Below are positions 18,903-40,500 of a stretch of 64,000 nt of DNA, piece after piece. The stretch comes from Candidatus Heimdallarchaeota archaeon. GTDB lineage: Archaea > Asgardarchaeota > Heimdallarchaeia > Heimdallarchaeales > Heimdallarchaeaceae. A model generated the notes under the pieces. That model saw only the letters and a program-made list of their open reading frames with translations. It had not been told where the DNA came from and searched no databases. Numbering within the stretch: position 1 is the stretch's first letter; every line of letters starts with the position of its first letter. The stretch covers positions 125,298 through 189,297 of the forward strand of contig JAHLWR010000006.1 in the NCBI GenBank assembly GCA_019057815.1, written 5' to 3'. Position numbers and translations under genes: made by a program.

Positions 18903-19481
18903 GTGGATTTTGAACAAGAAAATAACAAAGAAAAAATAGTTGAGAACCTTATAGTTAGTATTAACAATGATCTTGACGATGGTCAACTAAAAGAAATTTT
19001 ACAAGAAATTATAAATGAGGATGAAAAGGTTGTTTTACAATTTTCAAAGCAAATAGCAACTAAAATTGATCAAATAAGTAATCTTGACAAAATTGGTTTT
19101 TGTCTTTCCGTTCTTAGTTTAAAAAGTAAGTTGGTATCCTTTTCTGTAGTCAATAATATTGATATTGAAATACTAAAAAATAAAATAGATCAAAATAACA
19201 TTTTTAGAATAAGAGACTTAATAATCGCAATAATTAAGATAAGTGAGGAAATAGCCTTACAATTAGTAGGGAATTTGGCTAGGAGAATCGATCAAACGAA
19301 AGACATGGTGGCTATAGCTTACTGTATTTGCGATATTGAGAAAGTGAGTGAAAAGGTAGCATATGCACTAGTTGACCAAATAGACTTTGAACGTAACTTG
19401 AAGATGATGAAAGGGAAGGGAGATATTGAACATTTATCTAATCATAAAGGTGGTCACTACTATGTAAGATTTACTGAATAA
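18903..19481 (+). CDS. Hypothetical alpha-helical repeat protein
   Basis: Three repeats of ~35-40 aa marked by KIDQ/KIDQ/RIDQ; SD-like AGGTG before the GTG start. Confidence 0.6.
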   Translation: MDFEQENNKEKIVENLIVSINNDLDDGQLKEILQEIINEDEKVVLQFSKQIATKIDQISNLDKIGFCLSVLSLKSKLVSFSVVNNIDIEILKNKIDQNNIFRIRDLIIAIIKISEEIALQLVGNLARRIDQTKDMVAIAYCICDIEKVSEKVAYALVDQIDFERNLKMMKGKGDIEHLSNHKGGHYYVRFTE

Positions 19482-19574: not shown

Positions 19575-22500
19575 TTATTTTCTTGATATTCGATCCCATT
19601 GTTTCATAAATTCTTGAACATTAACCCAAGAAATGATCCATCTAGCATTAGATAATGCGTTCTTATTAGTACCAAATGTTGATTGAAAATCATCAAACAT
19701 TTTAGACATTGCATTAAATTTATCGCTGATACTTGCTCTTGCTCCTATTTCTCGTAATGATTCCCAAGCATTTACTAGAGCCATCCCTGTCCATAGTTCA
19801 AACTTATTCCATGGTGTAGTATTGTCATTTATTGCTTTAAGTTGTTTTTCTGAACGTACTAATTCATATAACACATGGTAGAACTTTGCAGTCTCCGAAA
19901 CCACAAATCCTATTTCTCGTCCATTTGCATCTTTTCTTATTAATCTGTTTGGAACCGTTGCAAAGGGGTTTAGTGCTAATTGTATCGCTTTCAATATATT
20001 ATATTCTGTAGTATCTTTTGCAGTATCCTTAATTTTTTCGTCAATATACTCAGCATAACTTAACTTCTTTTGTGTTGATGCTTGTCTGACAGTTTGTCTA
20101 TAATACTCTATAGCAATACTTTCCTTATTTGTTGCTAATTTAACAAAAAGTGGGGTATCATCTTTCCAAACTATCACGTCTTTGCCAAATTCCTGTTCCA
20201 TTATACTTCTACTCACTGGTCTCCATTGTCCCCCATTGGTGATAGCATCATATATTCTGGATATGAATGGGGCGATAAGAATGTTTGCTAGTTTTTTATA
20301 TTCAAGTTCATTTAAGATTGAATCTGGACCTCTTCCGAATGTATATCCGTGCTGACCCATACGCATTATTTCTACTATTATATCAATCATTTCTTTTATT
20401 GTTTTAATTTGATCTGTATTTGATATATATTTACCTTCAGAATAATATCTTTTATTAGATAGATAGATTTGGAGGGCACCCTTTAATTCGATTTCATTAT
20501 CGAGTATGTCCCTAACAGTTAACTCTTGGGGTGTTAACGTCCCTTTATATATATCATATGTTTGTTTTATTTTCTCATGTGCGTTCTCTTTATTGAAATA
20601 ATAAGGCCCAAATTTGCATCTTCTTGGTATTTCATCTTTTAACAGAGCATATTTTAATAACCTCCTCGCACCAGGTATTGACCAACCTAATCTCGTGGGG
20701 CTTCCTTCTTCAGTTTGTGTTCTGAAAGGAGTATCAAATGGCATTTCACCATCATTTCCAAAACTTATACTTTTTGTTTCTATGTTTTCTATTGCATTGA
20801 TAATATACTGATCTAAGGTTCCACCCTTATTATACTCTTTTAAGTATTCTAGTTTTATTATATTAGTACCTTCGGTTTGTATATACTCTTCATTACTTGT
20901 ATAAACTTTTGGAGCGTTACTCTTAGTCATTTGTGACATATGTGATATTAAGTCATCTAGACAGATTCGGTCTTCTTCTCCTATTTTTCTCTTTGATATT
21001 TCAAGAAATTGCATAATATTCCCTTGAGAGTTTCTAACCACTATACATTGCGTACTACCACCTGCATACAGTGTTGTTTCAGCTAATCTTATTAAAAGAA
21101 CAGTAGATGATACTGCACTTACAAGATTATTTATTTTTCCCATTTCTTCTAATTTCTTTATTTGGTCTTGGAACCTTTTGTTTGTAGTTCGCATATGGGT
21201 ATTTTCACTATCTATATTTTTTGTCGATATAGTGATTTTTTCTCCCAACATTTGGTCCATTTCCGAGTCAAAATCCAACGAACCTTGGACATTCATTAAC
21301 ATTTTATCAGTAGTACTATAGCGTCCTACACTGCTAGTATAGTCAGTAAAAGCATTTGCACCATAAAGAAGTTCTGCTCTAGTCCTTCTACTGCTTTGTG
21401 GTGTTTCAAACATCCCATTTTCATTCGTTTGACGTTGTAATAGTAATGATGTATGTGTATCTACATTTGGTGAATAGTCAAGGTCGGAATGAGCTTTATG
21501 TACTGTTTCAAACAGATTTAGTTCCCATCCTCTTCTAGTGTTTACGTTATCATAGTAACCATTTGTAAGTCCGTTAATCAATCCTGTTATCATTTGTCTC
21601 TCAAATTGTTCATTTATTGCCATATATTGTTTCGCTACAGAAGATATAGCGGGTAAGTTATTTTCCATGTTTATATCTAGCACTGTTTTTAATTCATCGA
21701 TTATTTGTGCTCTTAGGTTTTGTGCACTATCAGCTAACCACACACTTCCATCTTGTTTGAAAGTATAGTACTTTCCACTTTCTTCAGCATAAAAAATTGC
21801 AGGCGTAACTTGGTATTTTGTTCCATCTTTTGATTTAAATTCTAGTACGTTTCTATGTGTAGGATTGTTTGAACGAACAAATGATTCAGCATGAAGATTT
21901 ATGCTTGATGTCTTACCATCAAATTCTACTTCAGTTATCTCTGTAGTTGTACCTGGTAATCTTATTGAATAGACTTCAGTATGGGCTCTATATTTTATCA
22001 TGTCAATGTTTGTGCCTAGATTGTCCGAAGAATGAGAAAGATGGAGTCTATAATCGCTGGGGGTTCCTCCGCTATCATACTCAATGATAAAACCATTTTC
22101 ATCCCTAATAGGAGCTAATTCTCCTTGTGCAAAAGCGGTTAAATCAGATATAATGGCTTGTTTTTGTAAGTGTTGAATGATATTATACCCAGCATCCGCG
22201 TTTTTAGCATCTAATGCAACAATAAGATCTGCTACTGTCCATCTATTATTTTTTCCTGGGAAGACATCGTATTCTCTCTGTACTGTACCTATAATATTTT
22301 TTGTGTTTAGTGTTCCACCATTAGGTGTAGAATATTGTTTAACGAATAATTCATTTTTTTCTGTTACGCCATATATTATACCCGCATGTCTTAAGAAAGA
22401 TTGTGCATCTAGAGATAATTCATTCACAAATATGGTGTTTTTAGTACCAGTCAAATCACTTATGCTGTATTCACCTGAATAACATTTAGCTTCAACGTTT

Positions 22501-25500
22501 ATCATAACATCAATTTGTTCATAAGTTATTGTTGTCTTATGTGTTTCAGAATTATAATGATATGTAGGAATAAGCTTCTTACCTGCTATGAACGCATCTT
22601 TACCTTGTTTTTCTCCATGATATTTTTGGTCATCGGTTTTTTCAAACAACCATTTCAAGGATTCTGTTGTAACTCTTCCTGTACCATCTACTTCGAAAGA
22701 AGGAATAATATCAGTAACTTTACCATTTTCATCAACTACAGCTCTCAACCAAGGACTTATCAAATCGTTTGAAGGCAAATCTTTTTCCGCACGATCGTGA
22801 ATTGTATGTTCGACTTTTTCCATCATTTGTTGTTTTAGAAGTGGTTCTTGTAAGACCATCATATCTCTGTAGAAAGTTGATGCAAAATGTATCTTTTCTT
22901 TAGAACCAGTATGTTCGAATCTGAACTCATAATAAAGGTTCATCATTTCCTGTACTAGGTTTCTAAAACCTATCTTATATATATCATTAGTATTGTATTT
23001 TTTACTTTTTTTAACCCATTCAATAAAATCTTTATATCCAGCTTGTTCTGATTCCACCCATTTTCCAAACTCCTTCATAGAGACTTTCTGACCAACATTG
23101 TTTAGAAAGTCGTCAGTGATTACTTGTTCGAGATCTTGAGCTTTTTTAATAATGTATAACATATCAAAGAGAGGGGTATTTTCATAATCCTCTGCAGAAG
23201 ACCATTTTATGAAATTATTAACAGGAACATTTCCAGGTATTATTTTATCAAGAGGAATTAGAACCCTACCATCACTTGTAGTTATGAAAGAAGATTGTTT
23301 AGATGTAGTATCTTTCATTATCCAAATATTTAGAAGTTCATCTTCTGGCTTTGTTCCTGAATCTTCCCAATACCTTTCATGTGCAGACATCCACTCTTTC
23401 GTAATGTCTCCCTTTTTAACAGTATCTCGAAGCTCTTGAATATACGTTTCGTCATAGATTATTCCACGTGAGGTTACACTTCTAAGATACTGTAGATAGA
23501 AGTTCAGTCTTTCTCTTTCACAAATAGACTCTTTAAAAAGTTCTTTATAAGTAGGCCTTTTTGGTTCACTTTCATCTACAGGATTAACTTTATAGTTTTC
23601 TATTTCAATACTGCCATCTGTAGGAACATCTGTATTCAAACTAAATTTATAATTAGGTGGTGGTACGTAATGATCCCAATCTTCAATTTCTATACCAAGA
23701 GTGGGCAAGATACTTTCTAGTTCACTTATATCTTGGAGATCATACATCCATTCCATGACATTATGGAACCAGAAAGTATGACCAAATGATTGACCTAATT
23801 TCCAAGCATTATTTCCTCTTAATTTCTGAGGATCCATTCCTGAAACTATTCTCGCTAGTTTTGTCTTGCTCAATGGACGCATCTTGCAGAAAAGTTGTAA
23901 TCCAGTCATAACAAGAGCTTCAGGAAGTCCCATTACCCCTCCTAAAACTTTTTGATAAAGCATTTGAGGGAGAAATATACCCCAATTAAGAAATTGCATT
24001 ACTGCACTGGCTGTTAGAAGGGAGTAGAGTTTCCTATTTCTAATGGTTTTTTGAATATTCTTGTTGTTTTCCCAAACATCAGAAATAGTTTCGAATCCAT
24101 CTCTCACTATCTTCCTTTGGGGATGAACAGGAACAGAAAGTTTAGGAGACAAACCTAAATCTTTCATATCCTCAGTAACTTGACCCATGTATTTCCTCCA
24201 TGCTTGTCCATCTTTCAGCTGTTGTTGTAAGACGTTTTGAGCTTCTGCAATTGGATCAGGACCACGACTGACTAATGCAGCAATATCTCCAGGTATTTGA
24301 GCCATAGCAAGTCTTCGATAAAAATCATCAGGATCAAGGAACATATCTCTGATATCTTGCCATAAAGCAATAATGTCGAATTTAGCTAGAAACATTTCCA
24401 TTACTCCCATAAAAGTAGACTCTCCCATTCCAAGACCAAAACCTCCGGGAAGTATGGCATTATCACTTAATCCCATAAACCACTCATAATGCCAAGTAGA
24501 GTCAGGATTTGATTCATCATCATAAACTTTGTAAATGACTATATCAGATTCTCTTACTGTTCCATCGGGAAGATAATTAGAGGAATTGTTCTTGGTGAAA
24601 GGAACATAAATAGAACTTGTATTAGCGCCAACAGTTTCACTAATGGAAACCACAAATCCAAGATTGCGTAAAAGTTCAGCTGCTGCTGCAACACGCGTAT
24701 CATTACTCTCCCAATGTTCGTCATCATAAAAACCGATTTCATAATTGCCATTACCTTGTTCTTTTTGAACATACAATCGTGCAAAATTAACTAAAAGAGC
24801 CATAAAGGCGTTTTCTTCTCCCACTTGCCATTCATGAGAACCAAAATGTTCGTCAACAAATTCAACGTTATGAGCTCTATAATTTAAATGTAATAGTTCA
24901 TCAGTATTGGAATTAACAAATGGATATTCATAAACACTTGAACCCCCAGTACATCCCCCGATCGTCAAAACCCAAAACAGTAGAAAAGTAAATTTTCTAA
25001 GTATAGCTAGTTGAGTATCAGCATCACCGGACATAGATTTAACACCTGCTTTAGCCCATCCAGCAATGGCTTTCCAAGCAATAGTTAATTTCTTCCAAAT
25101 ATTCTGGAAGAATCCAGAAACACTCTGCCAAGAACGTTCGGCTACACCTTTCAAATAAGCCATTTTATTGTTGAAACTGAGTTCATGGGAGAACAAAACA
25201 TTAAATGTTGTTGTAATGAACTTCCAAGCATCAGAGAACCAAGCAACTATTTTATCAATCATCACTTGGAATTGGTAAGTTAGCCCCTCAGCTATGAAAT
25301 TAGGATAATTGAGCATATCAAGAACGATCATCCCTACAAAGAGAGCTCCTTCAATCCACAGACCTATAACAAAAGCACTACCTATCATCCCCATAAATGG
25401 TAACCCAACAGTTGCTAAGTATGGACATACAACAAATCCTACAAGATAAGTAACAAACATTAATCCTGCCATAATCGCATAAGCATCCTTATGTTCCCAA

Positions 25501-28500
25501 ATGTTCTGCCAGAAGGTGCTATTAGGAGTGAATAATTCATTAAAGATGAATTTAAAGGCGTTAAAAACTTGTTTTATAGGACAAAGGACTTCTCGTTGAA
25601 TAAAATCATGTAATTGTCTATAAAGAGACTTACTTAAAGCTATGAAAGCACCGAAATAGTCGATACTTGTAAGATATTCACTGAGTGTTATACAAGCTTT
25701 TGATAGAGTTTGTGATGGAGAAAGTGGTCGTGAATCAACATCGTCTACAGTGATATCAGTAATAATAAACAAACCAGTGGAGCTTAATATAGCATCTCCA
25801 TAAGAGGATGAGACAGATATTGAAGCTTTACCTATTTCATAAGCGAGAGCATTGCTCCCATATAGAATATGTAGTTGTTTAGTAAGCAAATTTATAGTTA
25901 TAACTCTATTATGGAGAGTTATTCGCATCTGAGAGCCGGAAAAATCAGTGAAGGAGCCATTTTTAATGGTAATTGTAAAACTATCCTTAATTCCCAAATG
26001 AACATGTTGCTTGCCTACATCCCAAATTTCAATATCTACAACATTTTGTAGTTCAATATTCATACTGCTTCCAATACTTTGAATATTGAAATCACTTTCT
26101 TGAAGTGTTAAAACGTTAGAGCTTTCGCCCGTAATAGTATTAACAGCTTGAGAAACAAAAATCTCAGTATAACCTAAAATATGTGAATTGTAAGTAGAAG
26201 ATTCTAACCCTAAACTCTTCATTTTCGCTAAAGAGTTAGTTTCAAGACCACAAGGAGCAGTGGATTGAACTTCTACCTTCTGAATATATATCTCTTGAGC
26301 TTCATGATTGGTGGATTGATCATAAATAATTGCTGCAACTACATATCCAACCTTATCAGTATCATCATAATCAGCGACACCTATCCACACCATTCTTGTA
26401 ACATGAAACATGAAACCATCGTAATTGACACTGGAATAGAGATAATCTTTAGAAGTATAAGGTCGTCTAGCAACGTCTGTAGTAGAAGAATAGGGGATGT
26501 TTAATCCGCCTTTATATTCATCTAGAACTAGATATAACCTGTTTTGTGAGAGTTTTTCAGAAAGGTCCAGACTATAATCGGTAGGACCAGCAAAGGGTAT
26601 AATAGCATCAGTTAATCCTTCAATAGATATAGAGAAGTTGAGAGTTTCACTATTAATTCTATTTAGGAAGAAACTGAAAGAATGGAAACCCTTTCTATGC
26701 CAAGAAGTATTGAAAGTATCTCCAAGATAGGAATCATAAATAGAATAAGGTTCTCCCATTATTTCAAGTTTGAATTTATCATTAGTATCTGTAATAGGAA
26801 GCAAAGTATCAAAAGAAGTACCATTATATGCTGTGGGATAATGAATAGCGACACCATCAACAAAAATAGCAGCAAGTTGATCAATATTTAAGTTAGAATG
26901 TAGTATAAATGAGTAAGGATCAACTATATCAGCTAAAAGGTAGAGATAGAAGGTACATAAAATTTGAGAGTTGTTATCATATTCTTCGATATCTCCAAGA
27001 GACATAATATTCCCATATTCGTTGATTTTAGAGCGCTCAAAATATACTTCTGCTTTTGAAACATTGTTAACTAATATATCTCCAGGAAGAGGAACAGCTC
27101 GTTGTAAGAAATCATAAATTCCAAAAGACATAGAATTATTATCATAGAAATTGATCCATGGAGAACCATTGGGTGCCCATTCTCCTTCCATATCAATCCA
27201 AGTACTAGGTGTAGAGACAACATATTCTGGTATGAAAGTGTTATTTAGTTCATCTCTCTGTAGTTCAATTGAGTTTAATTGAGGGAGAAAGACATGGTCA
27301 AGAATAACATCTACTTGGAAGAATAGAGTGGTATCAAGAGAGATATTCTGCATACCATGATTCATGACTCTGAAGATAAACCTGGATAACCCACCATAGA
27401 CATGAATTGGAAGAATATGTATTACACTATCATATTCTCCCAGAATAGGTGGTTGATAAGAATACATCGTTGGGATAAGTAGTTCAAATTCCATATTAGT
27501 ATTAATGACAAGTGAACCATAACATTCAGAGACAGTTTTAGTCGTGAACGAAAGATAGAAGGAAGTATCGTTTCCAGGATAAATATTGAATAAATCAGTG
27601 AAATCAATTCTTCCAAGATTATTTGCAGAAATCTCCTTCCAATGTGAAGCAACAGGCATAGATACGCTCTCTAAATCTTCTGAAGGCCAAACAGCTGCAG
27701 GAGGAACATAGAGAGCAAAATTATCAACAAAAATAGAAGAACCAGTATTTGCTGTAATAGAGAGAGGGTAACTTCCAAAAGAGGTATATTTAGCAATGGT
27801 ATAACAATTCTTAACTAAAGCCATGGGTTCTGATGCATCTAATTCTGTAAGGAGATCAATTAATTTAGATTCTCCAACAGGAAGATATTCAACATATTGA
27901 AGATAAGTGGTAAAAAGAGATTGATAATGGTGCCAAGAATCATCATCAACGATAGTATCATAGATTCTTACGAGTTGATAATCATTAAAACCTTCAGTGT
28001 AAATTTGCTTATCTAATGAGCTATCTCCTGAAAGAACAAGTTCAATTAAGAGATTCCTTGAATCGTAGTTATAATCATTAATATACATAGCTAGAGTAGG
28101 AATAGAGATAATAATACTGTCCCCATTTGGGATCTTGTAGTAAATCTCTAATGCTGTAGCTGGTTTGATGTCAAGAATGAAATCACAATAATTATCACCG
28201 TTGAATAACTCTGTTACATTCCCCATTGTTTCATCATTTACAATTGAGATAATATACTCTTCAGGTGAATTGAAATCTATTTTATATATAGAATCGATTA
28301 ACTCATCTACATCTTCATCAGGAGCTGTATACAACCAGTCGGTTATTGGTATAGACTCTCCTAAAGCCAACCTATCGAGTTCAATAAGGTTATCAAAATG
28401 TAAAGTATACAAATGTAACCCTACAGTATCAAAATTTTGTAAACTTATTAATATTGGATGGAAACTTGCCATAGGTGAATATTTAACCATTTTTTCACCT

Positions 28501-31500
28501 ATTAATTGTCCATCACCATAGACAGTTATCTTTGTAGGACCTAGTAAGGGGTTGGCAAAAACTTGTAAATAACATGTAGTATTAGAATACTCATTAGAGA
28601 AGAGGGGTTCATTAAGTTGGGTGTCATATACCCAATTATCCATATTACAAGTGGTGAAATAACTATTAAGAGTATCAATAATAACTTCTGCTAGAAAGAG
28701 CATTCCTTTAGTAGCAGATATTTCAATATCGTAGAGATATCCTTCAATAAGGGTAGTATTTTCAGTGAAAGACCAACTTATAGGTTCTTGTGAGTTTTTG
28801 GTCGTGTCGATAATTGTTAATTCTTGATGTGTTTGATTGAAAGAATAAGATAGATCGTAAAAATGCTCATTTAAAAAGATAAAATCTAAGTAACTATTAT
28901 TGAAATAGAGATAATTATCAATAATAGAGATGTTGAACAGATTTAAACTATTATAAGAACTAATAAAACTTGCATCAGTGGTACCGTTCATAAGGAATAG
29001 AGCATTAAAAATATTAAGTGTTGCATTATACATGGTGTAAGTAGAAGAGATAGAGCTCTCATCTAGTAATAAGGAATATTTGCTATCACCTTTCAACCAG
29101 TAAGAAACTTCTCCAGCACCCCATAGTCCTCTACCATAAGCGTAGACCAAGTCACTTGCTTGCATTTTTCCATTTGAAATGTAATCAATATATGCTAAAC
29201 TATTAACAGTTGAAATGGATAATCTTACATCTGCAACAGAATCCATACCAAACATGCCTGTATAATACTTAGTTTCCCGATGTTCATAATCACCGGCTTT
29301 CCAGACAGTAAAAATCACATCTCCGTGATTTACACTAACAGCAACAAAATAGGGTTTATCATATTCGTTAGGATTAATCTCATAAAAGGCATCAACGGTT
29401 CTGTAACCAAAGAAATCTAAACTATAAAGATGATCATCAACATAAGTTCCCCATCCATATCTACTGAAAATAATTTCCCTTTCTTGACCAAGGTTATTTT
29501 CAATAGCAATCTTGATGTATTTTTCTTTGTCGAAGGAAACAATATTTTGTTGAGGGTTAAGGATTGAAATTATAAAGTTTGTATCGGTATTATCTTGATA
29601 AGGTGTTTCAATAGTTCCATCTAACCACAATCCATCACTTGAAACATGGCTTGAGCCACTATTAAGGTTGACATAATCTCCTGAATCGTTAGCTAAAAGG
29701 GGTGAGATAGAAAGGTAATTGTAAGTGAAATTAGTATTGTTAGCATACAAACCTATTTGTCCTTTACTTCGCATGTCGTAATCTATTTTACTATTATCAC
29801 CGAACCAACCATTATGACACTCATATATTCCATCGTCCAAATATTGAATTTCTAATAATTCTTCAATACCATATCTGGGATAAGTTCTATAAGTCTTAGC
29901 GAAGATATTTAGACTTATTCCTGTTTCTGAAAAAGTTTTAACAATTGTAAGTTTTAAGGGAACTATTATATCTTTATTACCATCAAACGAATTACCAAGT
30001 TTAGTTATTTCATTTAGATACAGGATATCATAAGATGAATCAGAATAATATCTTGCAACGATTAATGACACAGGATAAGTCCAATCATCATAACTGTAGC
30101 CTTTTACAGTAAAACCGACGAAAATGGAATCAAAGAACAAGTTATCTGGATCGCTTTCAGGAATATTAATCATTATTCCTGCTGTAGAATTGTAATAATT
30201 CCTCGGATATACCCCCATTTCAAGTTGTATAACACAATCACCGTAGCTTTGAGTGTTAAGATAAGCAGAAGAATAACCCGTTGAACTATTTTGAACAAGA
30301 ACATAATCATTATTCGAATACATAAAATCACCATAAGTTGGGACGAAGTTATGGTCATATTCTAATTTATCAGGTTCATCAAAATTAAAGATATGTGGAG
30401 AAGTGTCTATATTTTCAGTGATAAAAGATATTTCATCAATAGAAACCATCATGGTTTCATTCACCACAATAGAATATCCACTAATTTGTTGAATGTCATA
30501 TTTATTCAATTCAATTACATCACTAGTAACAAAAGAGATATTTTGACTTTCAATCTCGAAAATAACCTTATCGGAAGTGCCAACAAACATGAATTTGTAA
30601 GGATTAGTAAAACTGAACTCTTTTTCAAGTTTAATGGGACCTCTTAAAAGAAGATTACCGAAAATTACGTCATCATCGGTAGGGGGTATAAAGACTTTAT
30701 CTAACAAACACATGAATATAGTGATATCCGTTTGAGCCATGAATCCATAACCATATCCAATGAACGTAGAAAGCCAATTTTCGTAGAACATTAGAGGATT
30801 AGTGATTATTAAGTCTCCATGTTCAGTTTCATTGTATTCGACTCCTTCAAGATTGACATATCCTCCTACCCATTCTCCTATTGATGATGGAAGACTTGAA
30901 GCATTAACTAACCAAGTAGCTTCATATTGATCCATACCTATATCCATACCAAACGAACTAATGTTAATCGCTACAGAACCACCTATTTGTGCAGAATCAA
31001 TTAGTCTCCCGCTAAATTTCTTATAATCATCATATGTTAGTAAATGAAGCGAACCGTCCTCATCAACTCCTCTCATAAAGGGTTCTGTACCTACCCATAG
31101 CAAGTAGTTTCCTACATATTGCCATTCTTCCAAAAGAGTTGTAATAAAAGGTCTTCCAAAATGGTCATAGATGTAATATTCTTCTATTAGTTTTGTAGGA
31201 ATCTCATCAAAAATAGTAAGAATAACTTGTTTATTAATATTAATCGAATTATTAAACCACTGGATAAATTCTGGATCGTCAGAGTCGAAAGAAATAACTG
31301 GGACTTCATAAAGTGATTGGATCATTGTAACAAAATCTTGTTCTTCAGCATATCTTTCAGGTGTGCAATGACTTCCAAGCAAAAACGTCAAAATAGTATT
31401 AGTACTATAGTGCACTCCAACATCTGCTATTGAGTCAACGGTTGATACAACAGAAGAATCGTCGTAATGGAGGTAATTATATCCATAGATTTTGTATATC

Positions 31501-34500
31501 ATAAAGTTGCGTAGAAAGATTTTACACGGAGATGTAACCTTAATTGTTATTTCCCCTAAGAGATTATTTGTGAAGGGATAAAGGATCTCGTAAAGATTTT
31601 TCTTAATTGAAACAAAACCTAATGTAGTATCAATATTTGGAGTTATATCAAATGTCATGTTTTCGATAACAAGATAAATTGTTCCTTCAGGGAATTTTTC
31701 CTCTGTCATAATATCAAAGGAGAAAAAGGGATAATTGCTTACATTAAGAGGAGGGATATGCAAAGTTGCTTGGCAAGTTTGTGTAGTTGTGTGATCAATA
31801 ATCATAAGATTGTTGGAAAATTGAATTTCCATTCCAGATGCTGTCCAAAGTGAACTACTAAGTGTTTGTTGAGATAGAAAAATCTCTTTTGTCCACACAG
31901 ACTCATCCCATCCAGTAGGAGAAAGATAGCCTTCGAACTCTTCTTCCCATCCAAACATATCAGAAGAATAAACATAATCCTCTTCAGCCTCTGCCCATGA
32001 TTGAGGATAGCCTGTTTCCAACATGTAAAGACTGATGGGGATCATTCTATCAATACATATTATTACCTCAAACAATCCATTGTACCCTATAATCATTAAT
32101 GAATGAGTGTAAGTGTCAATATCATTATCCAAGAAAATTATGCCACCAACAAAATAAGCACTATTGATATCAAAAGACTCTCCAATAGGTAGCAAATAGA
32201 CTAACAACTGTAACCTTTCTGTGATATTTTCAAAAGAATAATAGTTTGACAGTGCAGTTATGCTTAATTTTGTTTCTTCCTCTATCCACATATCATAAGA
32301 AGCAATAAAGTTTTGTTCTGTGGGTATTTCCCTACTTAATAATCCTGTCTCATCTTGTTGAGCAGTATTAATCATGATATTACTGATGATAAATTCGTTA
32401 GGTGTAATTATTCCAGTATAAGGAGCAGCTTGAGTGATTCGTAATCCGAAAATGTCAGAATGTAATGAAGGAAGAGATTCTAAATCATAATCAAATGTTT
32501 CTGATACAGGTATGAAATAATCTCCTCTACAAATCGCAAAAAGAAGATTATCTCCCTTTCTAGCAAACCTAAACCATTTATTTACCTCTGTTATACCATC
32601 ATCCTCGTAAGATAAGACAAGTTTGTCATATAGATAGATATCAACTTGTAAAGTGTCATTAAACACCATTAATATCGTAAATACTGTTTGATAAGAATTA
32701 TCTAAGAGTTCAATTTTTAAAATCCCAATATTATTATATTCAAGATCGACTAAGGGTTTAAAAGATAGGATAAAATCTTCGACACATATAATATCTTTGA
32801 AATAGCTTCTACCTCTAAGTCCTTCTGAAGGAGTGTTGAAATTGAATAGAGTTTTAAGTCCTCCAGAATGAGAAAAGGGAACATCATCTGTTGATGTTTC
32901 ACCATAGGTATGAGTTGAAAAGTCATCCATAATTACAAAATCAGTTTCATATATTCTTGGAACAAATTCTGCAACAGTTATTGGAGGAACAGGGTTAGAA
33001 ACAGGCATATTTCTTGCATTAAGATAAATTGCATCAATTAACATCGTATGAGCCGTGTAACTTTTAGCTAATTGTTTGAGTTTTATTCTATCAATATTAA
33101 TATTTTCTATTTCATTAGTATATTCGAATATTTTATTGAGTTGATTAGAGGAAATATCGCTGTATATGGAAAGAGTATTCCCTATTCGTTCAATACGAAA
33201 AACGTTTTGATCAAGTTTTTGACTTGTAACGTATGTATCTTGTTTAATTCCATCAATTAATAAAATGATTTCTATACTACTTTGAGATGTGGATATTATA
33301 TCTAGTTGGAATAAATTGTGATGACGGATGGAATTTTCTAATACTAAAGATATTATTCCTTCCGAACCATCAAGTAGAAAAGATAATCTTATATCAAAAT
33401 AGAAATCTCTCTGGAACGAGTGTTTGTAAGAGTAAGTGTTGCCATACCAATTACTTTTGTTCACTCCAAAATCAGTTAGAAGTTTTGTTCCATCGATAAG
33501 TGAATAACTGTTAGTATAATATCCAATACCATTTACATCCCAATTCAAGGTTTGAAAATGGTCATTAATAATGATATGTCCATCAGACCAAGGAGATAAA
33601 TAAGCATTAGCAGCAGAGTCACTAAAAACAACATTCCCAAAGGCGAAGGTAATAGGATTATTAGAAGGGTTTGTGGTAATCTCAAGTTTAATATTGTTTA
33701 TTGCCTCACTGTTTGAACTTATTGAAATCATGGGTTCAAGCGAATATAAATGCAAAATGTCCGAATATAGCACAACAGATGTTCCACTTTTTGTTATTCG
33801 TAGTGTATTGTAATTTAATATAGTTTTATCAAGAGTAATGGTACTTGTATCAGTATTAGACTCTAAAGTGAATATCATATTTGTTCCACTAAAAACAACT
33901 GTAAGTTTAAGTGTTTCATCATTTAATAAAAGCCTAAATTGTCCAGTATTTAAGTTGGCAATAGCACTCATTAATATATCAATTGTGAAATCGGTATCAG
34001 AGGCATTAAGATTTCTAGTAAATGTTACATTTGCTGTAGTAAGTGAAGGATTAGTGGGAATAATATATAATAAGTCATCTTTATTGCTAATTGAAAAATC
34101 TGTTTCTGCACAGTTTGTATATGTTTCTTCCCATATACCTGATAACCATGCTGGATAAAGATCATCGTTGAATATTGTATTAATGGAAGATGTTTCATAA
34201 CCCATCTTATAATAATATTCGTCAATTATAAGATCGTTAACATAAGCATCGATATAAGGAGTATTCTCATAAGCTGTTTGTTTAAGTTTTATTTCATCGA
34301 AGATAAGTTCACTAAAAGATAAATCTATAGTAACCAAATCACTCCATGAATCCCTATCATAAAGACTTATTTTACAATCATATTCTTCTTTTACTATCCT
34401 GACAACATAGTTTAGTATTTTGTTCTCTATTATGTTTTGATAAACGATGGTTTCACCGTGATGTATCATAAGATATGTAGCTTTTGAATTCTCATCAGCA

Positions 34501-37500
34501 TCCTGTAAAGTAATCGATATGACATCGTTTCCTCCAGAACTAAGAATAAATGTTTGTTTTCCTTTAAATGCTGGGTATTCTTGTAGTACATCAAAACCAT
34601 ATTCAATAATTAAATTAGGTGAAAAAGCTTCTTCATGAGTAAGTTCTATACCGTGCCACCCTGTACCATAATCAAATGAAGGTATCAATTGGGAGTTAGA
34701 TAATGTAACGTTGTCATTATTTTGAGTATTTAACGACCATTGTGACAAATTATCATTGAATCGTTCTTCAAATACTCTGTGCCTTAAAATAGTATAGCCA
34801 TTCTTATACGAAGCTGTTACAGCTCCTACAGCTATTGAAAAACCATCTTCAGTACCTAAAATTATCTCCATCATTTTTGATTGTTGATATAAAGATGGTT
34901 CGTCTAGTACCACTTCAAAAATAGTTGTACCAGATGTTTCAAATTTGAGAGAATCATTAGTTTTAGTTAGTTTAAATGTAAATTGACCTCCACTGAAACT
35001 AGTAGTATCTTGAATATATCTCTCATATCCGTCGACCAAAATATAATAACGATTCCCCTTTCGACCAGCAGCTAAAAATGTTTCATCCTCATCATTAACT
35101 AAGCCTAATTGTATAATATCAGATGAAGAGATTTCTTGAGCAGTAAAGGTTATTTCAATTTTTACGTCGCCTGCAACATTAAAGTCAATATAAATTTTTG
35201 ATCCATAGGTTTCTATACTTGTTTTATTAAAATCAAAAGATAATTGTGTTTCACCAGTAGGTGCACCTTCCCAATCCCCAAAATTAGTAATGTTTGAAGC
35301 TATTTCTCCACAATAATCGTTGTAAACCGTTTGCCAAGTCTGTGTGGAGAATTTTGGATAATAAATTTCATTAGTGGAATCAGTGTAGTCAAAAAGCGAA
35401 ACATATCCTGATGGTTCATCTCCAGCATATATTAACATGTCATGATCAATATAAGTTGCTGTTCCTCTTCTATAGTAATCCCATGCAAATCTTGAATTTC
35501 CGAAAGGAGTAGCGCCAGTAAAACCTATAGTGTCAAGATAAATAGGCCAAATGAAAGGTGTTATGATTTCTATTGTAAGAATAGCTCTGAAGTTTAGATA
35601 TTCAGGGTTAATTGGTGTAATATATTGGTTGAGTCCTTTTCCATGTTCTATGTTCATTTTAGCAATTAATCTTCTACTTAGACCTGTACCATCAATATTA
35701 TCAATGTAAAAAACTACTTCTACATCTTCAGGTCCAGCATTCATAGCTCTTAGATGTAATCTGTCAGCTGCGAAGTCATCTTTCATTTCTATCTCTATAT
35801 TATTGACATTAACATCGATGTATTGTGAATAGATGCCAATATATCCTTTGTTGAAGGAAGTATCAATTAGATTTATTGATTCAGAATTAGGAATTAGAAT
35901 AGATATACTATACTCGCTGTAGATTATAGAAACAGTATAAACAAAGTTTTTTGTTATTGTTTCTTGTCTCTCATATAATATAGTAGTGGCACCATTGTTT
36001 TTCCTACAAAGTTTTATGAAACCATCATTTGAACCACCAATACCAAACTCTAGAAGATAGCCATCATTCGTTTGATTGTTATAATTAAACCATATACCAA
36101 AAATTGATTGGAATAGATCAGTGTAGTCAATGATTTTAAATTCAAATGTAGCAATATATGAATCGTTAAATTCTTCATTTAAATGAGCGTTTGTATTCCA
36201 ATAGTCAGAAAGTGTATCGGTCTTTAAAACACCATCAGAAATGTGTGTAAAATTCTCATTATATTCCCAATTATCTAGATCGTAGGTTTCAAATGACGAA
36301 GTATAAACAGGAATAGTGTTTTGGATTAAATAAGACACATACCCTCCATCTATATTATTGTCTATCATTAAAGTAGGATTATTATAAGAAGAATATCCGT
36401 AACTTTCATCATAAACGAAATCATCTACTTCCTTGACTATGGAGTTATATAACGACTTTGAATAGTCTTCAGCTTGAATAGTTTCCCCAGGGGTATAATA
36501 ATCATCAAATATTTCTCCATCAATGAATAAATAGTGTAATATTAACCCATTATCGGTAAGATCAATATTATCCCACCATGAGAGTTTTATTATGAGGTTT
36601 ACATAATGACCAGCAAATTCCGATAGATCTATGTTATTAACAGCTGGATAACCATCAACATATTCATATTCTGAAACAATGTTGATATATCCTCCTCGAT
36701 TATCCAAATCAAAAATATCAAATTCTATTTTAAAAGTTGTATTGAGACTCTCAGTAAAAGAGGAGAACAAATAAGATAATGTTGGGTTGTAAACGGAAGG
36801 AACACAAAAATAAAATGACATTTCTTTCCAACTTGCTTGAATACCATTGGTTTTTACAACTCTAGCATTATGTCCAAGATATTCTCCAGTAACATATCCT
36901 ATCTCAGAAGTTAGTCCTCTAGCAAGAGGATATATATCTTCAGAAAGCGTTTCTTTTGTGAGAAGATCAACTTGATGAAGTGCTGAAGTATATAATGAAA
37001 CCTCTTTAACTGAAACATCATAAAGATTCTCATCATTATCGATTATTTCGATAGTTACAAAATCAACATTTGGAAAGATGTAATAGTCTATTCTAACGGA
37101 ACGAAGAGAGTTAAAGTTTGTTTCTTCATATATTAATTGTGATGTGTTACTATCATAAATACGAATTTTATTAATAGAGTCAGACGTTTCAGTGTTTGTT
37201 AATACAGTTAGCAAAAGAGGAGAATATCCGTTCCATAAGCTTATATCTACCGACTTTTTAGTAAATTTATCATCGGATAAAATCAAGCAATTATACTTTG
37301 TTGAAAGACTGTTTCCCATCCACCCTTTATATTCCTCATTCTCAAAAAGTATATCGTGAACAAAATAATACTCATTTGTTGAATATAGACCTGTTTCACA
37401 CAATATTTGTGACACACTAGATAGCGTTACAAATAAAACCAATATTACAGAAAATGTTTTTGTTATACCTTTTTTTCTATTTTTCGCAATAATATTTCCA

Positions 37501-37511: not shown

Positions 37512-40500
37512 TTTTTAATCATCCTCCTTAAAAAAAGCTTAATGTCATTAGGTCTCAATTTTTTTGTAAAAATAAGTGAAATAGAAGCTACAGAAATAGT
37601 TACCCCTATTAATATTGGGATTAATATTTTAACATAATCATTTTTACCGCTTAAGTCCTCAATGACAGGTTCTATTGTAATATTCTTAGTGGAAGCATAA
37701 AGTTGGTTAATGTTGTTTTCCCATACTTCAGCAAAAACAGTAACATTCTTCTGAGGATAAAAAACATATGTTAAACTTTTCTCGTAATATCTATCTATTG
37801 TTATCCACTTACTATCGTTACCATATTTAAGTGAAAGTCTAATCTTGTATATTCCGCTATCTGAAGAAGTAGTAACGTCAATTATGTATTTATTACCTTC
37901 TTCTTGTTTGGTTATATAGACAGTTGGTGGACTTATATCTGGTTCTAATTGAAAATTGAAAAGTGTTATATTGAACTCATCAGAATAAGTCATGATTTTG
38001 CCATCAGTAGCCCTAAAGGAGTAAATATCGGCAAACAACTCACAATTATTCGGTAATCTGTTTAATGATAAAGTAGTGATCCATTCATTTCCTATAGTTC
38101 TTGTAAGAGGTAAAAATATGTCCATACTGCTAGCTGATGAACCAACAACAATACCCATAGGCATATATGACGTTATATATTTTGGAACACTAAAAGTAAC
38201 TAGAACATTTTCTACATCTTCATCGTAAGAATACTCAATTGGAACAATATCAAAATTATTATCTACACTATGAGAAGAATCTGTAGAATTGAGAGACACC
38301 TTAGGTATTGAAGGACATTGTACAAAACCTCCACCAAATGAAACTAAATAATAATGCCAAGTAATCCCCCAACCTGGATAATCGTCGTTACCAAAGGTGT
38401 CTACTGCATAAATAGTGAAATAAACTGTTTTACCTGCTGGAGCCCCGGGGATATACCCACGCCAAGTACCATCCCAATATGAACCTGAAATTTTAGACAT
38501 AGTTACAGAGTAAGGACTTGTAGATGAACCATGACCGCTCCAATAATATTTAACTTGAGCGTAATCAATTCCTACATTATCGGATAAATCTGCGTAGATG
38601 GGAACAGAAGTATATTTTGGTTGGGGAGGAAGTGTACCTGTCCAACTATCGATAACAGGATCATCACCATCATACCAGACGAAGTCTTGTGTTGCACTGT
38701 ACCATACGTCGCCACCATAATGGTTAGCTGAATCGATTTTATATCTATATGTTAGTGAAATATCGGGTCTATATCCATAATTGTACTCCATGAGATAAAC
38801 TATGTAATGGTAAATATTCCCACTACCTACACTTGTACCAGAATAACTGTATCCATTAAGATTAACCCAAGCAGTATCGTATTTATACTGCAATTTTGTA
38901 TTACCACCTGGACAACTGGTGAAACTTTCTGGTGGTGCGTTATCTTCATACTCTAAAGAATAAGAAGCAGTATTACCGAATGTTGTAGATGTTAAATAAA
39001 GCGAGTTTGGATAGAGATAAGGTGCATTATCAGATATGAAATGTATTAGTTGGCATTGTATAGATGAAGACCCACCCGCATAATAGATCTTGATATCTGC
39101 TCTACCATCTACTGGATAAATATTTGTACTTCCACTATGGAACTTTCTAAAACTAGGAATCATAGTGAAACGCCATTTAGAAGTATAAGTATCTACTTGT
39201 GTTTTAGACCCATACCAACTATAACGAATGCAGCCATAAGAAGAACTATATTGATAAGGTGTAAAAACATAATCAATTCTTACAGTCTGATGTTGCGACC
39301 AATGAGTATCTGGATCATTAACAATGACTTCAAAATAGAAACTGTTCTTAAATTCATTTTGATGATCATAAATATATTTTGTTGTAGTATCAAGGTTCCA
39401 CGTTGCGGAAACGAATTGTTGAGCATGTGTATCATCCAAAGTTATATCAACAGAGTAAGTGCACGATGAAGCACCACCATCATTTTGTGTGACTGTAATT
39501 GTAATATAAATCATGTCCCCTCCACTGACAGCTTCATTTCCTGAAAACAAATCTGTAAGTACATAGTATTCATCGAAATACGCAAAACCGTTGTGAATGG
39601 AATGTAGGTCGTTAAATGTTACAAAATAACCCGTAGTATAGTCTGTTATTGTTAAATCAACAGTATATGCGCTAGCTTCGTAGATTTTGTAAAAAACTTT
39701 GTAAGTGTCATCTATACAATGGTCTCCTCCATTATTGTCACTAAAACTTAGGTAGAAAATATTTGGTTCAGCACTGTCACTAAATGTTATTACATCCCAT
39801 GGAGATGTTCCTGACGAAAATTCTTTTGTGTCTGAATAAAACGCACCTGTGTGATCAATAAATTCCCATCTATATGTTATAGTAAGGTCATAATTCCATT
39901 CACAGACTGTATCAGTCTGATAAATAGAACCATCCCACAAGATAGCGTCATGTAAATCAATGGTGATATACAGATGATTTCCTGCAGCGTAGCTTGTTGA
40001 GATATCGTTGATAACAGCTGTACGTATGTGACTTTTAGTTGTGTCCCAATCTGCCCAATACTCAAGAGTAATTGCTATTTCATTATCATAGTTATAAGTT
40101 AAACTAGTAGTTAATTCAGCATACTCAAGAAAACCAAACTGTGAAGTAATACAAAAAGATAATTCAGCATAACTATCAACATTAATATCTCCTGTTGTAG
40201 TGCTTACACCACCGACACCGAGATGAATAGCCCCATAAGAACGAGAAGCGCAAATGAATGGTTCCCAAATAATAGGTGGTTCGCTACCTGTTTGGCTATA
40301 TGAACCCAAATTATCAAGTACAGTATAAGAACATCCATAATCAACAACTAAGAAATAGTATTCTATACCATTAGGTCCTAGAATGTTTGTTTCGAGTTCA
40401 GCTTTGAAAGTAAAAATAGGTGACACTAAATCAGTCATTACAACTTTGGTAAAGGGAGTGTCTGGGTTATAAGGATCATAAGGTCTCCAACAGAACCATA

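What the first reader, a model, noticed from the sequence alone, without database searches (positions are those of the whole stretch)
23880..25680. Translocation- or pore-like hydrophobic hairpin and Trp-periodic amphipathic helices inside the giant protein
Seen: after ~3,950 aa of beta-rich sequence the protein switches abruptly to a ~57-aa almost uncharged Gly/Ala-rich stretch (YAIMAGLMFVTYLVGFVVCPYLATVGLPFMGMIGSAFVIGLWIEGALFVGMIVL, aa ~4010-4067). This is flanked by Trp-spaced amphipathic helices (FWQNIW, AWFSDAWKF, SWQSVSGFFQNIWKKLTIAWKAIAGW) and followed by further hydrophobic segments at aa ~4173-4186 and ~4494-4540. Known: such hairpins with W-periodic helices occur in pre-toxin/translocation regions of polymorphic toxins, pore-forming colicins and tape-measure proteins. 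Inference: a membrane-insertion module that delivers the C-terminus into a target cell. The alternative is a multi-pass anchor that makes the protein a giant receptor with a cytoplasmic effector.
Basis: partly seen in the sequence, partly recalled or inferred. Interest (0 to 1): 0.8.

Follow-up and report, generated by a model that had tools for sequence, protein, structure and literature searches.

The report
Hairpin membrane anchor of archaeal giant
The hydrophobic stretch is a two-helix membrane hairpin inside a strongly conserved junction piece of a 5,978-residue surface protein from a Heimdall-group Asgard archaeon. It most likely anchors the protein in its own cell's membrane and leaves both the huge front part and the variable, sugar-site-free tail outside the cell; a toxin-type pore is not shown.

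Summary
Residues 4010-4066 of the 5,978-aa ORF (19575-37511, minus strand) form two very hydrophobic helices joined by a tight Pro/Gly turn and flanked by strongly amphipathic, aromatic-rich helices. In all four diverged lineages that carry this module, only these two helices pass a transmembrane hydropathy threshold.

The hairpin lies in a ~680-aa junction module (aa ~3950-4632) with the lowest dN/dS of the protein (0.05-0.08). The module contains:
- an invariant basic / 13-hydrophobic / GGC(T/S)G motif;
- an orphan alpha/beta domain;
- an acidic helix-loop-helix core shared with other giant-protein types of the same archaeal family;
- a WGxFxPQ helix pair.

It ends at a recombination breakpoint (aa ~4611-4633). 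The tail beyond it almost lacks N-glycosylation sequons (1 seen, 12.6 expected). The plainly extracellular parts of the partner giants show the same depletion, and no protein without a predicted transmembrane segment does.

Best reading: a hairpin anchor with both arms outside the cell. A cytoplasmic effector is disfavoured and a pore or translocation role is unproven. No Pfam, PDB-sequence or fold match was found. The scan has already reported paralogous cassettes on other contigs of this genome.

The parts
19575..37511 (-). Giant gene 2 of the cassette, 5,978 aa (P0001)
   Evidence: Single open frame. No Pfam-A family at E<=0.1 over the four pieces scanned, which cover the whole protein.
37389..37469 (-). 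N-terminal signal anchor or signal peptide, aa 15-41, preceded by a basic N-terminus
   Evidence: KD19 up to 2.19. Residues 1-17 have a net charge of +5.
25488..25661 (-). Pre-hairpin amphipathic helices, aa 3951-4008, with an invariant C-P..K motif
   Evidence: Alignments. Hydrophobic moment peaks at 0.47-0.59 across the four lineages (0.59 in this protein).
25314..25484 (-). Transmembrane helical hairpin: TM2 aa 4010-4031, tight Pro/Gly turn 4032-4038, TM3 aa 4039-4066. It ends in the conserved G....GM..LD motif.
   Evidence: KD19 is 1.73-2.51 for both helices in all four lineages. AF2 draws two helices. The turn is K/R-bearing in three of the four lineages.
25011..25310 (-). Post-hairpin amphipathic, aromatic-rich helices, aa 4068-4167. 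They start with the conserved PN(F/W)I motif, and the Trp-rich stretch lies here.
24942..25010 (-). Basic residues, then a 13-residue hydrophobic run, then invariant G-G-C-(T/S)-G (Cys4187). This is a lipobox-like internal motif.
   Evidence: G246, G247, C248 and G250 are invariant in A1. The spacing is the same in all four lineages. KD19 is only 1.17-1.63.
24492..24953 (-). First half of an orphan alpha/beta domain, aa 4187-4340. It carries a conserved N-x-S site within the G-A-N-x-S motif (G-D-N-V-S in the extra metagenome allele).
   Evidence: Alignments A2 and A3. Sequons are at the neutral level, 9 seen against 7.0 expected over the four lineages. No PDB or Pfam hit.
24267..24491 (-). Acidic helix-loop-helix core, aa ~4341-4415. 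Invariant residues are E4372, D4386, D4389, F4397 and D4409; E4364, R4399 and P4407 are nearly invariant. Other giant-protein types of the same family share this core.
   Evidence: It is the best-conserved 50-aa window at depth, 60-72% identity.
23877..24023 (-). Conserved helix pair with a W-G-x-F-x-P-Q motif, aa 4497-4545
   Evidence: KD19 is 0.83-1.38, below the transmembrane threshold.
23616..23876 (-). Last conserved stretch, aa 4546-4632, ending at the H-Y-x-P-P junction, which is the recombination breakpoint
   Evidence: Identity between same-genus orthologs falls from 94-100% to 32-85% here in two independent pairs. dS rises from 0.10-0.26 to 1.54.
19578..23615 (-). Polymorphic, sequon-free tail, aa 4633-5978, with a conserved G-x-D...E-x-K motif near aa 4970-5010
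   Evidence: NxS/T is 1 seen against 12.6 expected, while the reversed motif is 11. Tail relatives also occur behind other membrane architectures and free-standing.
37508..46981 (-). Partner giant 1, 3,157 aa: signal, ectodomain, C-terminal TM plus a basic tail
   Evidence: It is the same operon order as in the complete genome G006.
46974..49739 (-). Membrane-anchored S8 subtilase, 921 aa, first large gene of the cassette
   Evidence: Peptidase_S8 at 3e-40. N-terminal anchor at aa 11-39 and C-terminal TM at aa 884-909 with a basic tail.

Best explanation
The hydrophobic stretch is a two-helix transmembrane hairpin that anchors the giant protein in the membrane of the cell that makes it.

How it would form (inferred from standard Sec insertion logic). 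The first helix stops export of the ~3,970-aa front arm. The short turn, basic in most relatives, stays in the cytoplasm. The second helix restarts export. The ~1,900-aa rear arm therefore also ends up outside.

What the hairpin belongs to (shown). It sits in a strongly constrained ~680-aa junction module with these elements:
- amphipathic aromatic helices that probably lie on the outer membrane face;
- an invariant basic / 13-hydrophobic / GGC(T/S)G motif;
- an orphan alpha/beta domain;
- an acidic helix-loop-helix core common to several giant types of this archaeal family;
- a WGxFxPQ helix pair.
The module ends at a recombination breakpoint, beyond which lies a variable tail that carries a nuclease-like motif and avoids glycosylation sites.

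What the module does (inferred). It holds the exchangeable tail at the cell surface. It may also process or release the tail, either through the invariant Cys or acidic core or through the co-encoded membrane-anchored subtilase.

Status of the steps. Shown: the hairpin, its conservation, the breakpoint and the sequon depletion. Inferred: the outside position of the rear arm, the interfacial role of the helices and any processing.
For: 1. Only the two hairpin helices exceed KD19 1.6 in all four lineages (1.73-2.51). The next candidates score 0.32-1.38, and the third segment passes only in this protein, at 1.63. Two spans put the rear arm on the same side as the ectodomain.
2. The turn is rich in P/G/N, and it carries K/R in three of the four lineages.
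3. The tail is depleted in NxS/T in all four lineages: 1/12.6, 3/13.1, 1/12.7 and 2/12.1 (seen/expected). Pooled with the free-standing relative P0004, the residue two positions after N is S 5 times against 28 expected and T 2 times against 31, while the other residues checked stay close to expectation. The reversed motif is not depleted comparably (8-12 seen against 12-13 expected) and non-coding frames show no depletion.
4. Genome-wide, the most sequon-depleted 1,000-aa windows lie almost only in these cassettes. They include ectodomains of partner giants that have just a signal and a C-terminal anchor (C39: none in aa 1204-3077; C38: none in aa 1027-1960; this window's giant 1: none in aa 1122-2897). 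None of the ORFs that lack a predicted TM segment is depleted beyond chance, and their overall O/E is 0.97.
5. The module has the lowest dN/dS of the protein (0.05-0.08), and a joint jump in dS and dN marks the tail boundary. A second ortholog pair shows the same boundary.
6. The first half of the domain after the Cys has an extracellular-like composition (score +0.03; cytoplasmic mean -0.067, sd 0.031) and keeps a conserved sequon.
Against: - No dedicated topology predictor could be run. The parity argument rests on a simple hydropathy threshold.
- Basic residues precede the 13-residue hydrophobic run and flank the WGxFxPQ helix pair. By the positive-inside rule, which this organism's anchored proteins obey, those flanks would sit in the cytoplasm.
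- The tail's composition is closer to cytoplasmic than to extracellular proteins (-0.034).
- The tail carries a PD-(D/E)xK-like motif that would need nucleic acid.
- A free-standing tail relative (P0004) has no signal peptide or TM segment.
- Both structure models are poor (pLDDT 40 and 49.5).
- No cleavage or release has been shown.
Confidence: 0.55

Rival explanations
1. Multi-pass anchor with a cytoplasmic tail. The hairpin plus the third hydrophobic segment (aa 4168-4186), or a larger odd number of spans, place the domain after Cys4187 and the nuclease-like tail in the producer's cytoplasm. The protein would then be a giant surface sensor coupled to an intracellular effector.
For: - The third segment reaches KD19 1.63 in this protein.
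- K/R-rich flanks lie around aa 4483-4496 and 4545-4565.
- The tail's composition leans cytoplasmic.
- A conserved G-x-D...E-x-K motif is present.
- Tail relative P0003 follows a multi-TM block that ends in a run of basic residues, and P0004 is free-standing without any signal.
Against: - The third segment scores only 1.17-1.31 in the other three lineages, and its basic flank is on the wrong side for an out-to-in span.
- Strong, frame-specific sequon depletion of the tail has no known cause in a purely cytoplasmic protein. In this genome it is otherwise seen in extracellular ectodomains only.
Confidence: 0.2
2. Translocation or pore module. After contact with another cell, the hairpin and the amphipathic helices insert into the target membrane, alone or as an oligomer, and carry the polymorphic tail across. 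This would resemble colicin or diphtheria-toxin translocation domains.
For: - The architecture is a hydrophobic hairpin embedded among strongly amphipathic helices.
- The module is highly constrained.
- An exchangeable tail follows a sharp breakpoint.
- The tail is free of glycosylation sites, as expected for a chain that must thread through a narrow path.
Against: - No Pfam family of pore or translocation domains matches at E<=0.1.
- The hairpin is hydrophobic enough to be captured in the producer's membrane during Sec export (inference).
- The first helix is conserved only in hydrophobicity.
- The only adjacent small ORF (192 aa, convergent) has no paralogue in the genome and no family hit, so no immunity gene has been identified.
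Confidence: 0.15
3. The hydrophobic stretch is the buried core of a soluble helical domain or a compositional accident, and it never enters a membrane.
For: Structure models are too poor to show membrane geometry. The flanking helices could in principle shield a hairpin.
Against: Two adjacent windows with KD19 of 1.73-2.51 are kept in four lineages even though only 20-33% of residues are identical in aa 4000-4049, the window with the first helix and the turn. The protein is exported behind an N-terminal signal, so such segments would meet the translocon.
Confidence: 0.05

Closest known systems
Aloposon giant proteins Otus and Ephialtes of Candidatus Heimdallarchaeum (Wu et al. 2022, PMC8813620)
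   Same: - Tandem giant genes of 3,000-6,000 aa in a Heimdall-group archaeon.
- The junction module is 50% identical to a 6,104-aa protein in a one-contig genome of a sister genus.
- That relative sits behind a subtilase, a 3,171-aa giant and a ParA/MinD-like gene ~5.6 kb upstream on the same strand.
   Different: - This window's cassette has no ParA/MinD gene; there is none on the whole contig.
- ARAGORN finds no tRNA gene anywhere in the 64 kb.
- The paper gives no topology, domain map or function for the giants.
Bacterial polymorphic toxin systems (CdiA, Rhs and related; from my own knowledge of Zhang et al. 2012 and Ruhe et al. 2018)
   Same: - A huge conserved surface-exposed body.
- A sharp junction followed by a recombining C-terminal tail with a nuclease-type motif.
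- Both ends of the exposed body are near the producer's envelope, as in the U-shaped CdiA model.
   Different: - Archaeal host.
- Alpha-helical hairpin anchor in the cytoplasmic membrane.
- No known pre-toxin, FHA or Rhs/YD domain.
- No immunity gene identified.
- No toxicity shown.
Pore-forming colicin domain and diphtheria toxin T domain
   Same: A hydrophobic helical hairpin of about 2 x 20-28 residues flanked by amphipathic helices.
   Different: - No HMM match and no structural match from the models available.
- The helices here are more hydrophobic.
- They lie in a Sec-exported protein.
- The first helix is not conserved in sequence.
Bacterial and archaeal lipoprotein signal peptides (lipobox)
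   Same: Basic residues, a 13-residue hydrophobic run, then (I/V)-G-G-C followed by small residues. This fits the lipobox pattern quoted in PMC12462473.
   Different: - The motif is internal, about 4,170 residues into the protein.
- Lipobox proteins are reported as few in Asgard archaea (PMC12462473).
- Only 14 of 711 signal-like N-termini in this genome end in a lipobox-like Cys, and most of those are followed by further hydrophobic residues.
Phage tape-measure proteins
   Same: Long helical stretch with aromatic residues on one face; Trp spacing in one helix is 11, 7 and 6 residues.
   Different: The Trp residues are not conserved in relatives, the region is only ~100 aa long, and Pfam finds no tape-measure family in the giant.

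Membership tests
Aloposon (Wu et al. 2022) | Tandem genes for proteins of 3,000-6,000 aa | tested here: met
   The 3,157-aa and 5,978-aa genes overlap by 4 nt on the minus strand.
Aloposon (Wu et al. 2022) | Four consecutive upstream genes including a MinD/ParA-like ATPase | tested here: not met
   PF13614 matches nine places in the genome, none on contig C16. The upstream ORFs scanned are a subtilase and two ORFs without a family hit; a further 105-aa ORF was not scanned. The G006 relative does have a ParA-like gene upstream.
Aloposon (Wu et al. 2022) | Integration at a tRNA gene downstream of the giants | tested here: not met
   ARAGORN finds no tRNA in the 64-kb window, nor within 7.6 kb downstream of the G006 relative. 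Intron-bearing archaeal tRNAs could be missed.
Aloposon (Wu et al. 2022) | Homology to the published giants | tested here: inconclusive
   The module is 50% identical to a 6,104-aa protein of a one-contig sister-genus genome. The genome's name is hidden, so identity with Otus or Ephialtes is inferred.
Pore-forming colicin / diphtheria T / clostridial toxin pore domains | Match to the family profile (Pfam) | tested here: not met
   hmmscan of aa 3900-4700 against Pfam-A found no family at E<=0.1.
Pore-forming colicin / diphtheria T / clostridial toxin pore domains | Shared fold | tested here: inconclusive
   The model of aa 3940-4620 was too poor to search (pLDDT 40). Only the downstream domain model was searched, and it gave no meaningful match.
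Pore-forming colicin / diphtheria T / clostridial toxin pore domains | Membrane permeabilisation | not testable with these tools
   Needs liposome or bilayer assays.
Polymorphic toxin system | Conserved body with a sharply bounded, recombining C-terminal domain | tested here: met
   Breakpoint at aa ~4611-4633 in two ortholog pairs, with dS rising about tenfold.
Polymorphic toxin system | Known pre-toxin or trafficking domain | tested here: not met
   No Pfam family anywhere in the protein.
Polymorphic toxin system | Cognate immunity gene next to the toxin end | tested here: inconclusive
   The only neighbour is a convergent 192-aa orphan ORF with no paralogue in the genome and no family.
Lipoprotein signal (lipobox) | Basic region, hydrophobic region and [LVI][ASTVIG][GAS]C | tested here: met
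   (I/V)-G-G-C is invariant, 13 residues after the last K/R in four lineages.
Lipoprotein signal (lipobox) | N-terminal position and a host that makes lipoproteins | tested here: not met
   The motif is internal. Few lipobox-like N-termini exist in this genome, and few are reported in Asgard archaea (PMC12462473).
Phage tape-measure protein | Conserved periodic aromatic repeats over a long helix, with a family profile match | tested here: not met
   Trp is not conserved and there is no Pfam hit.

The most novel reading that the evidence does not exclude
The junction module is a self-contained archaeal export-and-release device. The hairpin and amphipathic helices would hold, and on cell contact insert or release, an exchangeable glycan-free nuclease-type tail. 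These Heimdall-group giant pairs would then be the first contact-dependent polymorphic effector delivery system known in Asgard archaea. The invariant Cys or the acidic core would be the cleavage site.
Probability: 0.15. Interest if true: 0.85.

Novelty: new variant of a known kind. Interest (0 to 1): 0.55.

Why it matters
Twin giant genes of Heimdall-group Asgard archaea were published in 2022 with no domain map, topology or function. This analysis supplies a working anatomy for one family of them:
- a central hairpin anchor;
- a highly constrained junction module with three sharply defined motifs;
- an exact breakpoint for tail exchange;
- a topology marker, the sequon-free zones, that links the tail of giant 2 to the stalk of giant 1.

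Together these turn an unexplained gene class into testable hypotheses about how the closest archaeal relatives of eukaryotes display or exchange large surface proteins. If the tail is released or delivered, it would point to inter-cellular conflict or recognition in these syntrophic organisms.

Tried and rejected
- **Pfam-A.** No hit on four pieces covering the giant. For the six members of the domain alignment, only chance-level hits at E>=0.055.
- **PDB sequence search.** A profile search with the domain alignment found nothing at E<=10.
- **AlphaFold2.** Two jobs gave poor models: aa 3940-4620 with 6 rows (pLDDT 40) and aa 4187-4500 with 15 rows (pLDDT 49.5, pTM 0.44).
- **Fold searches.** Foldseek against PDB gave its best hit at E 0.48. 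The wide VIA-align search gave Z<=5.6 on a helical hairpin only. Neither is usable.
- **Complex prediction.** Four copies of aa 3998-4192 returned no verdict, score 0.00. This is not evidence either way.
- **Wider homologue searches.** The 1.84-billion-protein representative search found one other protein with the module. The 5.8-billion-protein search returned only this genome's own paralogue. A metagenome scan added only another allele of the C39 paralogue lineage. The family is therefore tiny and the alignments cannot be deepened.
- **Hint/intein or Hedgehog-type self-cleavage at GGC.** Considered and set aside. The conserved His lies about 21 residues after the Cys with no T-x-x-H block, and the domain is predicted alpha/beta rather than all-beta.
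- **Classical lipoprotein processing.** Set aside for the reasons given in the membership test.
- **Composition classifier.** An extracellular-versus-cytoplasmic classifier was ambiguous for aa 4068-4167 and for the whole 4187-4493 domain.
- **Positive-inside counting.** Counting around the candidate spans gave conflicting answers.
- **ORF192 as an immunity gene.** It has no paralogues in the genome and no family hit at E<=0.01.

Full report
**Setting.**
The window is contig C16, bases 125298-189297, of a 3.7-Mb, 48-contig genome. Neighbouring genes are archaeal: NMD3, a branched-chain polyamine synthase, a class I Met-tRNA ligase and WD40. Earlier notes of this scan call the organism a Heimdall-group Asgard archaeon.

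Three minus-strand genes form one cassette:
- a membrane-anchored S8 subtilase (46974-49739);
- giant 1 of 3,157 aa (37508-46981), with a signal, an ectodomain, and a C-terminal TM plus basic tail;
- giant 2 of 5,978 aa (19575-37511), which holds the finding.

The giant has no Pfam-A family at E<=0.1.

**The observation.**
Kyte-Doolittle scanning flags aa 15-41, 4009-4067 and 4168-4186. AlphaFold2 draws aa 4008-4034 and 4039-4066 as two helices, and these are the best-scored residues of a poor model. The flanking regions are strongly amphipathic in every lineage. The Trp enrichment is real here, with 6 W in ~100 aa, but relatives have 2. Aromatic content is conserved instead.

**Relatives.**
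The module is rare.
- A search of 1.84 billion representative proteins found one other protein with it, of 6,210 aa, plus three proteins that match only the tail.
- The 5.8-billion-protein search returned only this genome's own paralogue.
- Whole-genome searches of 47 genomes of the order and 83 of the class found full-length matches only in one family:
  - a 98% ortholog in the same genus;
  - a 6,104-aa protein at 50% identity in a one-contig genome (G006);
  - the 6,010-aa paralogue on contig C39 and its ortholog (37-39%);
  - the 6,211-aa frame of G004 (37%), apparently the 6,210-aa protein.
- A metagenome scan added only another C39-type allele.

That makes four diverged lineages. In G006 the gene order subtilase / 3,171 aa / 6,104 aa is the same, and a ParA/MinD-like gene lies 5.6 kb upstream. 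This matches the published aloposon description (PMC8813620). The present cassette has no ParA/MinD gene on its contig and no tRNA gene in 64 kb, so it is a cut-down variant.

**Anatomy of the module (alignments).**
- aa 3951-4008: amphipathic helices with an invariant C-P..K.
- aa 4010-4031: TM2, conserved only in hydrophobicity.
- aa 4032-4038: a P/G/N-rich turn that carries K/R in three of the four lineages.
- aa 4039-4066: TM3, ending in a conserved G....GM..LD followed by PN(F/W)I.
- aa 4068-4167: amphipathic helices.
- aa 4168-4190: basic residues, exactly 13 hydrophobic residues, then invariant G-G-C-(T/S)-G.
- aa 4187-4340: the first half of an alpha/beta domain with many invariant residues and a conserved N-x-S.
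- aa ~4341-4415: a hydrophobic helix, an acidic loop and an amphipathic helix. E4372, D4386, D4389, F4397 and D4409 are invariant across 15 sequences, which come from this family and several other giant types of the same archaeal family (5,237, 5,328, 5,545, 5,561 and 4,635 aa).
- aa 4497-4545: a helix pair with W-G-x-F-x-P-Q.
- aa 4546-4632: a last conserved stretch ending in H-Y-x-P-P.

**Evolutionary rates.**
Against the same-genus ortholog, aa 1-4600 are about 96-97% identical. Identity then falls to 50% in aa 4601-4700 and to 73-92% beyond.
- dS is 0.10-0.26 in the body, 1.54 in aa 4611-4700 and 0.3-0.5 in the rest of the tail. The tail therefore has a separate history (recombination) and is not merely under relaxed constraint.
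- dN/dS is lowest in the module, at 0.05-0.08.
- The second ortholog pair (C39 lineage) breaks at the same alignment position.
- Tail relatives occur behind a quite different membrane block (P0003, 2,438 aa) and as a free-standing gene (P0004, 1,203 aa).

**Topology, first line of evidence: hydropathy across lineages.**
Only TM2 and TM3 exceed KD19 1.6 in all four lineages (1.73-2.51). Scores for the other candidates:

| Segment | KD19 |
|---|---|
| Third segment (aa 4168-4186 here) | 1.63 here, 1.17-1.31 elsewhere |
| Core helix | 0.32-1.35 |
| WGxFxPQ helix pair | 0.83-1.38 |
| Highest stretch in the tails | 0.98-1.44 |

Two conserved spans return the chain to the side of the ectodomain.

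**Topology, second line of evidence: glycosylation sequons.**
- The front arm has NxS/T at the neutral level (48 seen, 46.7 expected). The tail has 1 against 12.6-12.7, while the reversed motif, DxS/T and QxS/T are normal.
- All four lineages show the same depletion: 1/12.6, 3/13.1, 1/12.7 and 2/12.1.
- Pooled with P0004, the residue two positions after N is S 5 times against 28 expected and T 2 times against 31. The other residues checked stay close to expectation.
- The matching DNA pattern is not depleted in the non-coding frames.
- Genome background: O/E is 0.97 for 875 ORFs of 300-2,000 aa without a predicted TM segment. The lowest value among the 29 of them with at least 6 expected sequons is 0.41.
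- In a genome-wide scan, nine of the ten most depleted ORFs are giant-cassette proteins. These include ectodomains of partner giants whose only hydrophobic segments are an N-terminal signal and a C-terminal anchor: C39 giant 1 has no sequon in aa 1204-3077 and C38 giant 1 has none in aa 1027-1960. This window's giant 1 has 23 sequons in aa 1-1121, none in aa 1122-2897 and 5 in the last 260 aa.
- No protein without a predicted TM segment is depleted beyond what multiple testing allows.

In this organism, then, sequon-free zones mark exported segments that must stay unglycosylated. The tail of giant 2 belongs to that class. Both lines of evidence agree that the rear arm is outside.

**Counter-evidence.**
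- Basic residues precede the 13-residue run and flank the helix pair, and the organism's anchored proteins obey the positive-inside rule.
- The tail's composition is nearer to cytoplasmic proteins.
- The alignment shows a conserved G-x-D...E-x-K motif, PD-(D/E)xK-like.
- P0004 has no signal peptide.

One reading that reconciles these points is an effector built to work in a cytoplasm but exported. That reading is speculation.

**The GGC motif.**
It fits the lipobox pattern. However, it is internal, this genome has few lipobox-like N-termini, and Asgard archaea are reported to have few lipoproteins (PMC12462473). A Hint-type self-cleavage site does not fit the downstream motifs. Its role is open: cleavage, acylation or structure.

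**Structure.**
Both models were poor and the fold searches gave nothing usable. The fold of the alpha/beta domain and of the acidic core remains unknown.

**Verdict.**
The hydrophobic stretch is a real, conserved transmembrane hairpin. It most likely acts as the central anchor of a protein whose two arms are both extracellular, and it is embedded in a constrained junction module that precedes an exchangeable, glycan-free tail. A pore or translocation role is neither excluded nor supported. A cytoplasmic effector is the less likely topology. The scan has already followed up paralogous cassettes on other contigs of this genome and reached compatible conclusions. What this report adds:
- the two-span parity argument across lineages;
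- the invariant motifs;
- the exact breakpoint for this locus;
- the sequon-free zone of giant 1 as a topology calibrator.

Noticed in passing
window 38291-43618 (-), giant 1 aa 1122-2897: The partner giant has 23 N-glycosylation sequons in its first 1,121 aa, none for the next ~1,775 aa and 5 in the last 260 aa. Its paralogues on contigs C39, C38 and C7 show the same pattern. This sequon-free zone may be a glycan-free interface for the equally sequon-free tail of giant 2.
   Followed up: partly
window 24267-24491 (-); also L029, L027, L032, L024, L031, L022, L023, L030, L033: A 75-90-aa acidic helix-loop-helix core (E...E...QD(V/I)(R/K)D...F.R...IP.D) is shared by several otherwise different giant-protein types of one archaeal family. 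It has no Pfam or PDB match.
   Followed up: partly
L034:10001-13612 (+): A free-standing 1,203-aa relative of the tail, with no signal peptide or TM segment, lies inside a 28.6-kb contig between a 69-aa gene just upstream (beyond it a divergently oriented glycosyltransferase gene) and an LRR gene. It has no sequon against 8.8 expected.
   Followed up: partly
G000 contig C18, plus-strand ORF from 33035, 1,011 aa: A protein with a signal peptide and a C-terminal anchor that has no N-glycosylation sequon against 10 expected. It is the most depleted ORF in the genome and lies outside the giant ORFs examined here.
   Followed up: no
window 37508-40900 (-) versus L036:2-3445: Between same-genus genomes, the last 1,148 aa of giant 1 are only 79-95% identical, while the body of giant 2 is 96-97% identical. 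Giant 1 therefore evolves faster than the conserved part of its partner.
   Followed up: partly
window 57479-60295 (+): A 938-aa protein combines an Mrr-type restriction endonuclease domain with weak similarity to a STAND NTPase domain (below Pfam's cut-off). It looks like a defence gene.
   Followed up: no
window 18903-19481 (+): An orphan 192-aa acidic ORF converges on the giant's stop codon across a 93-bp AT-rich gap. It has no paralogue in the genome and no family.
   Followed up: partly
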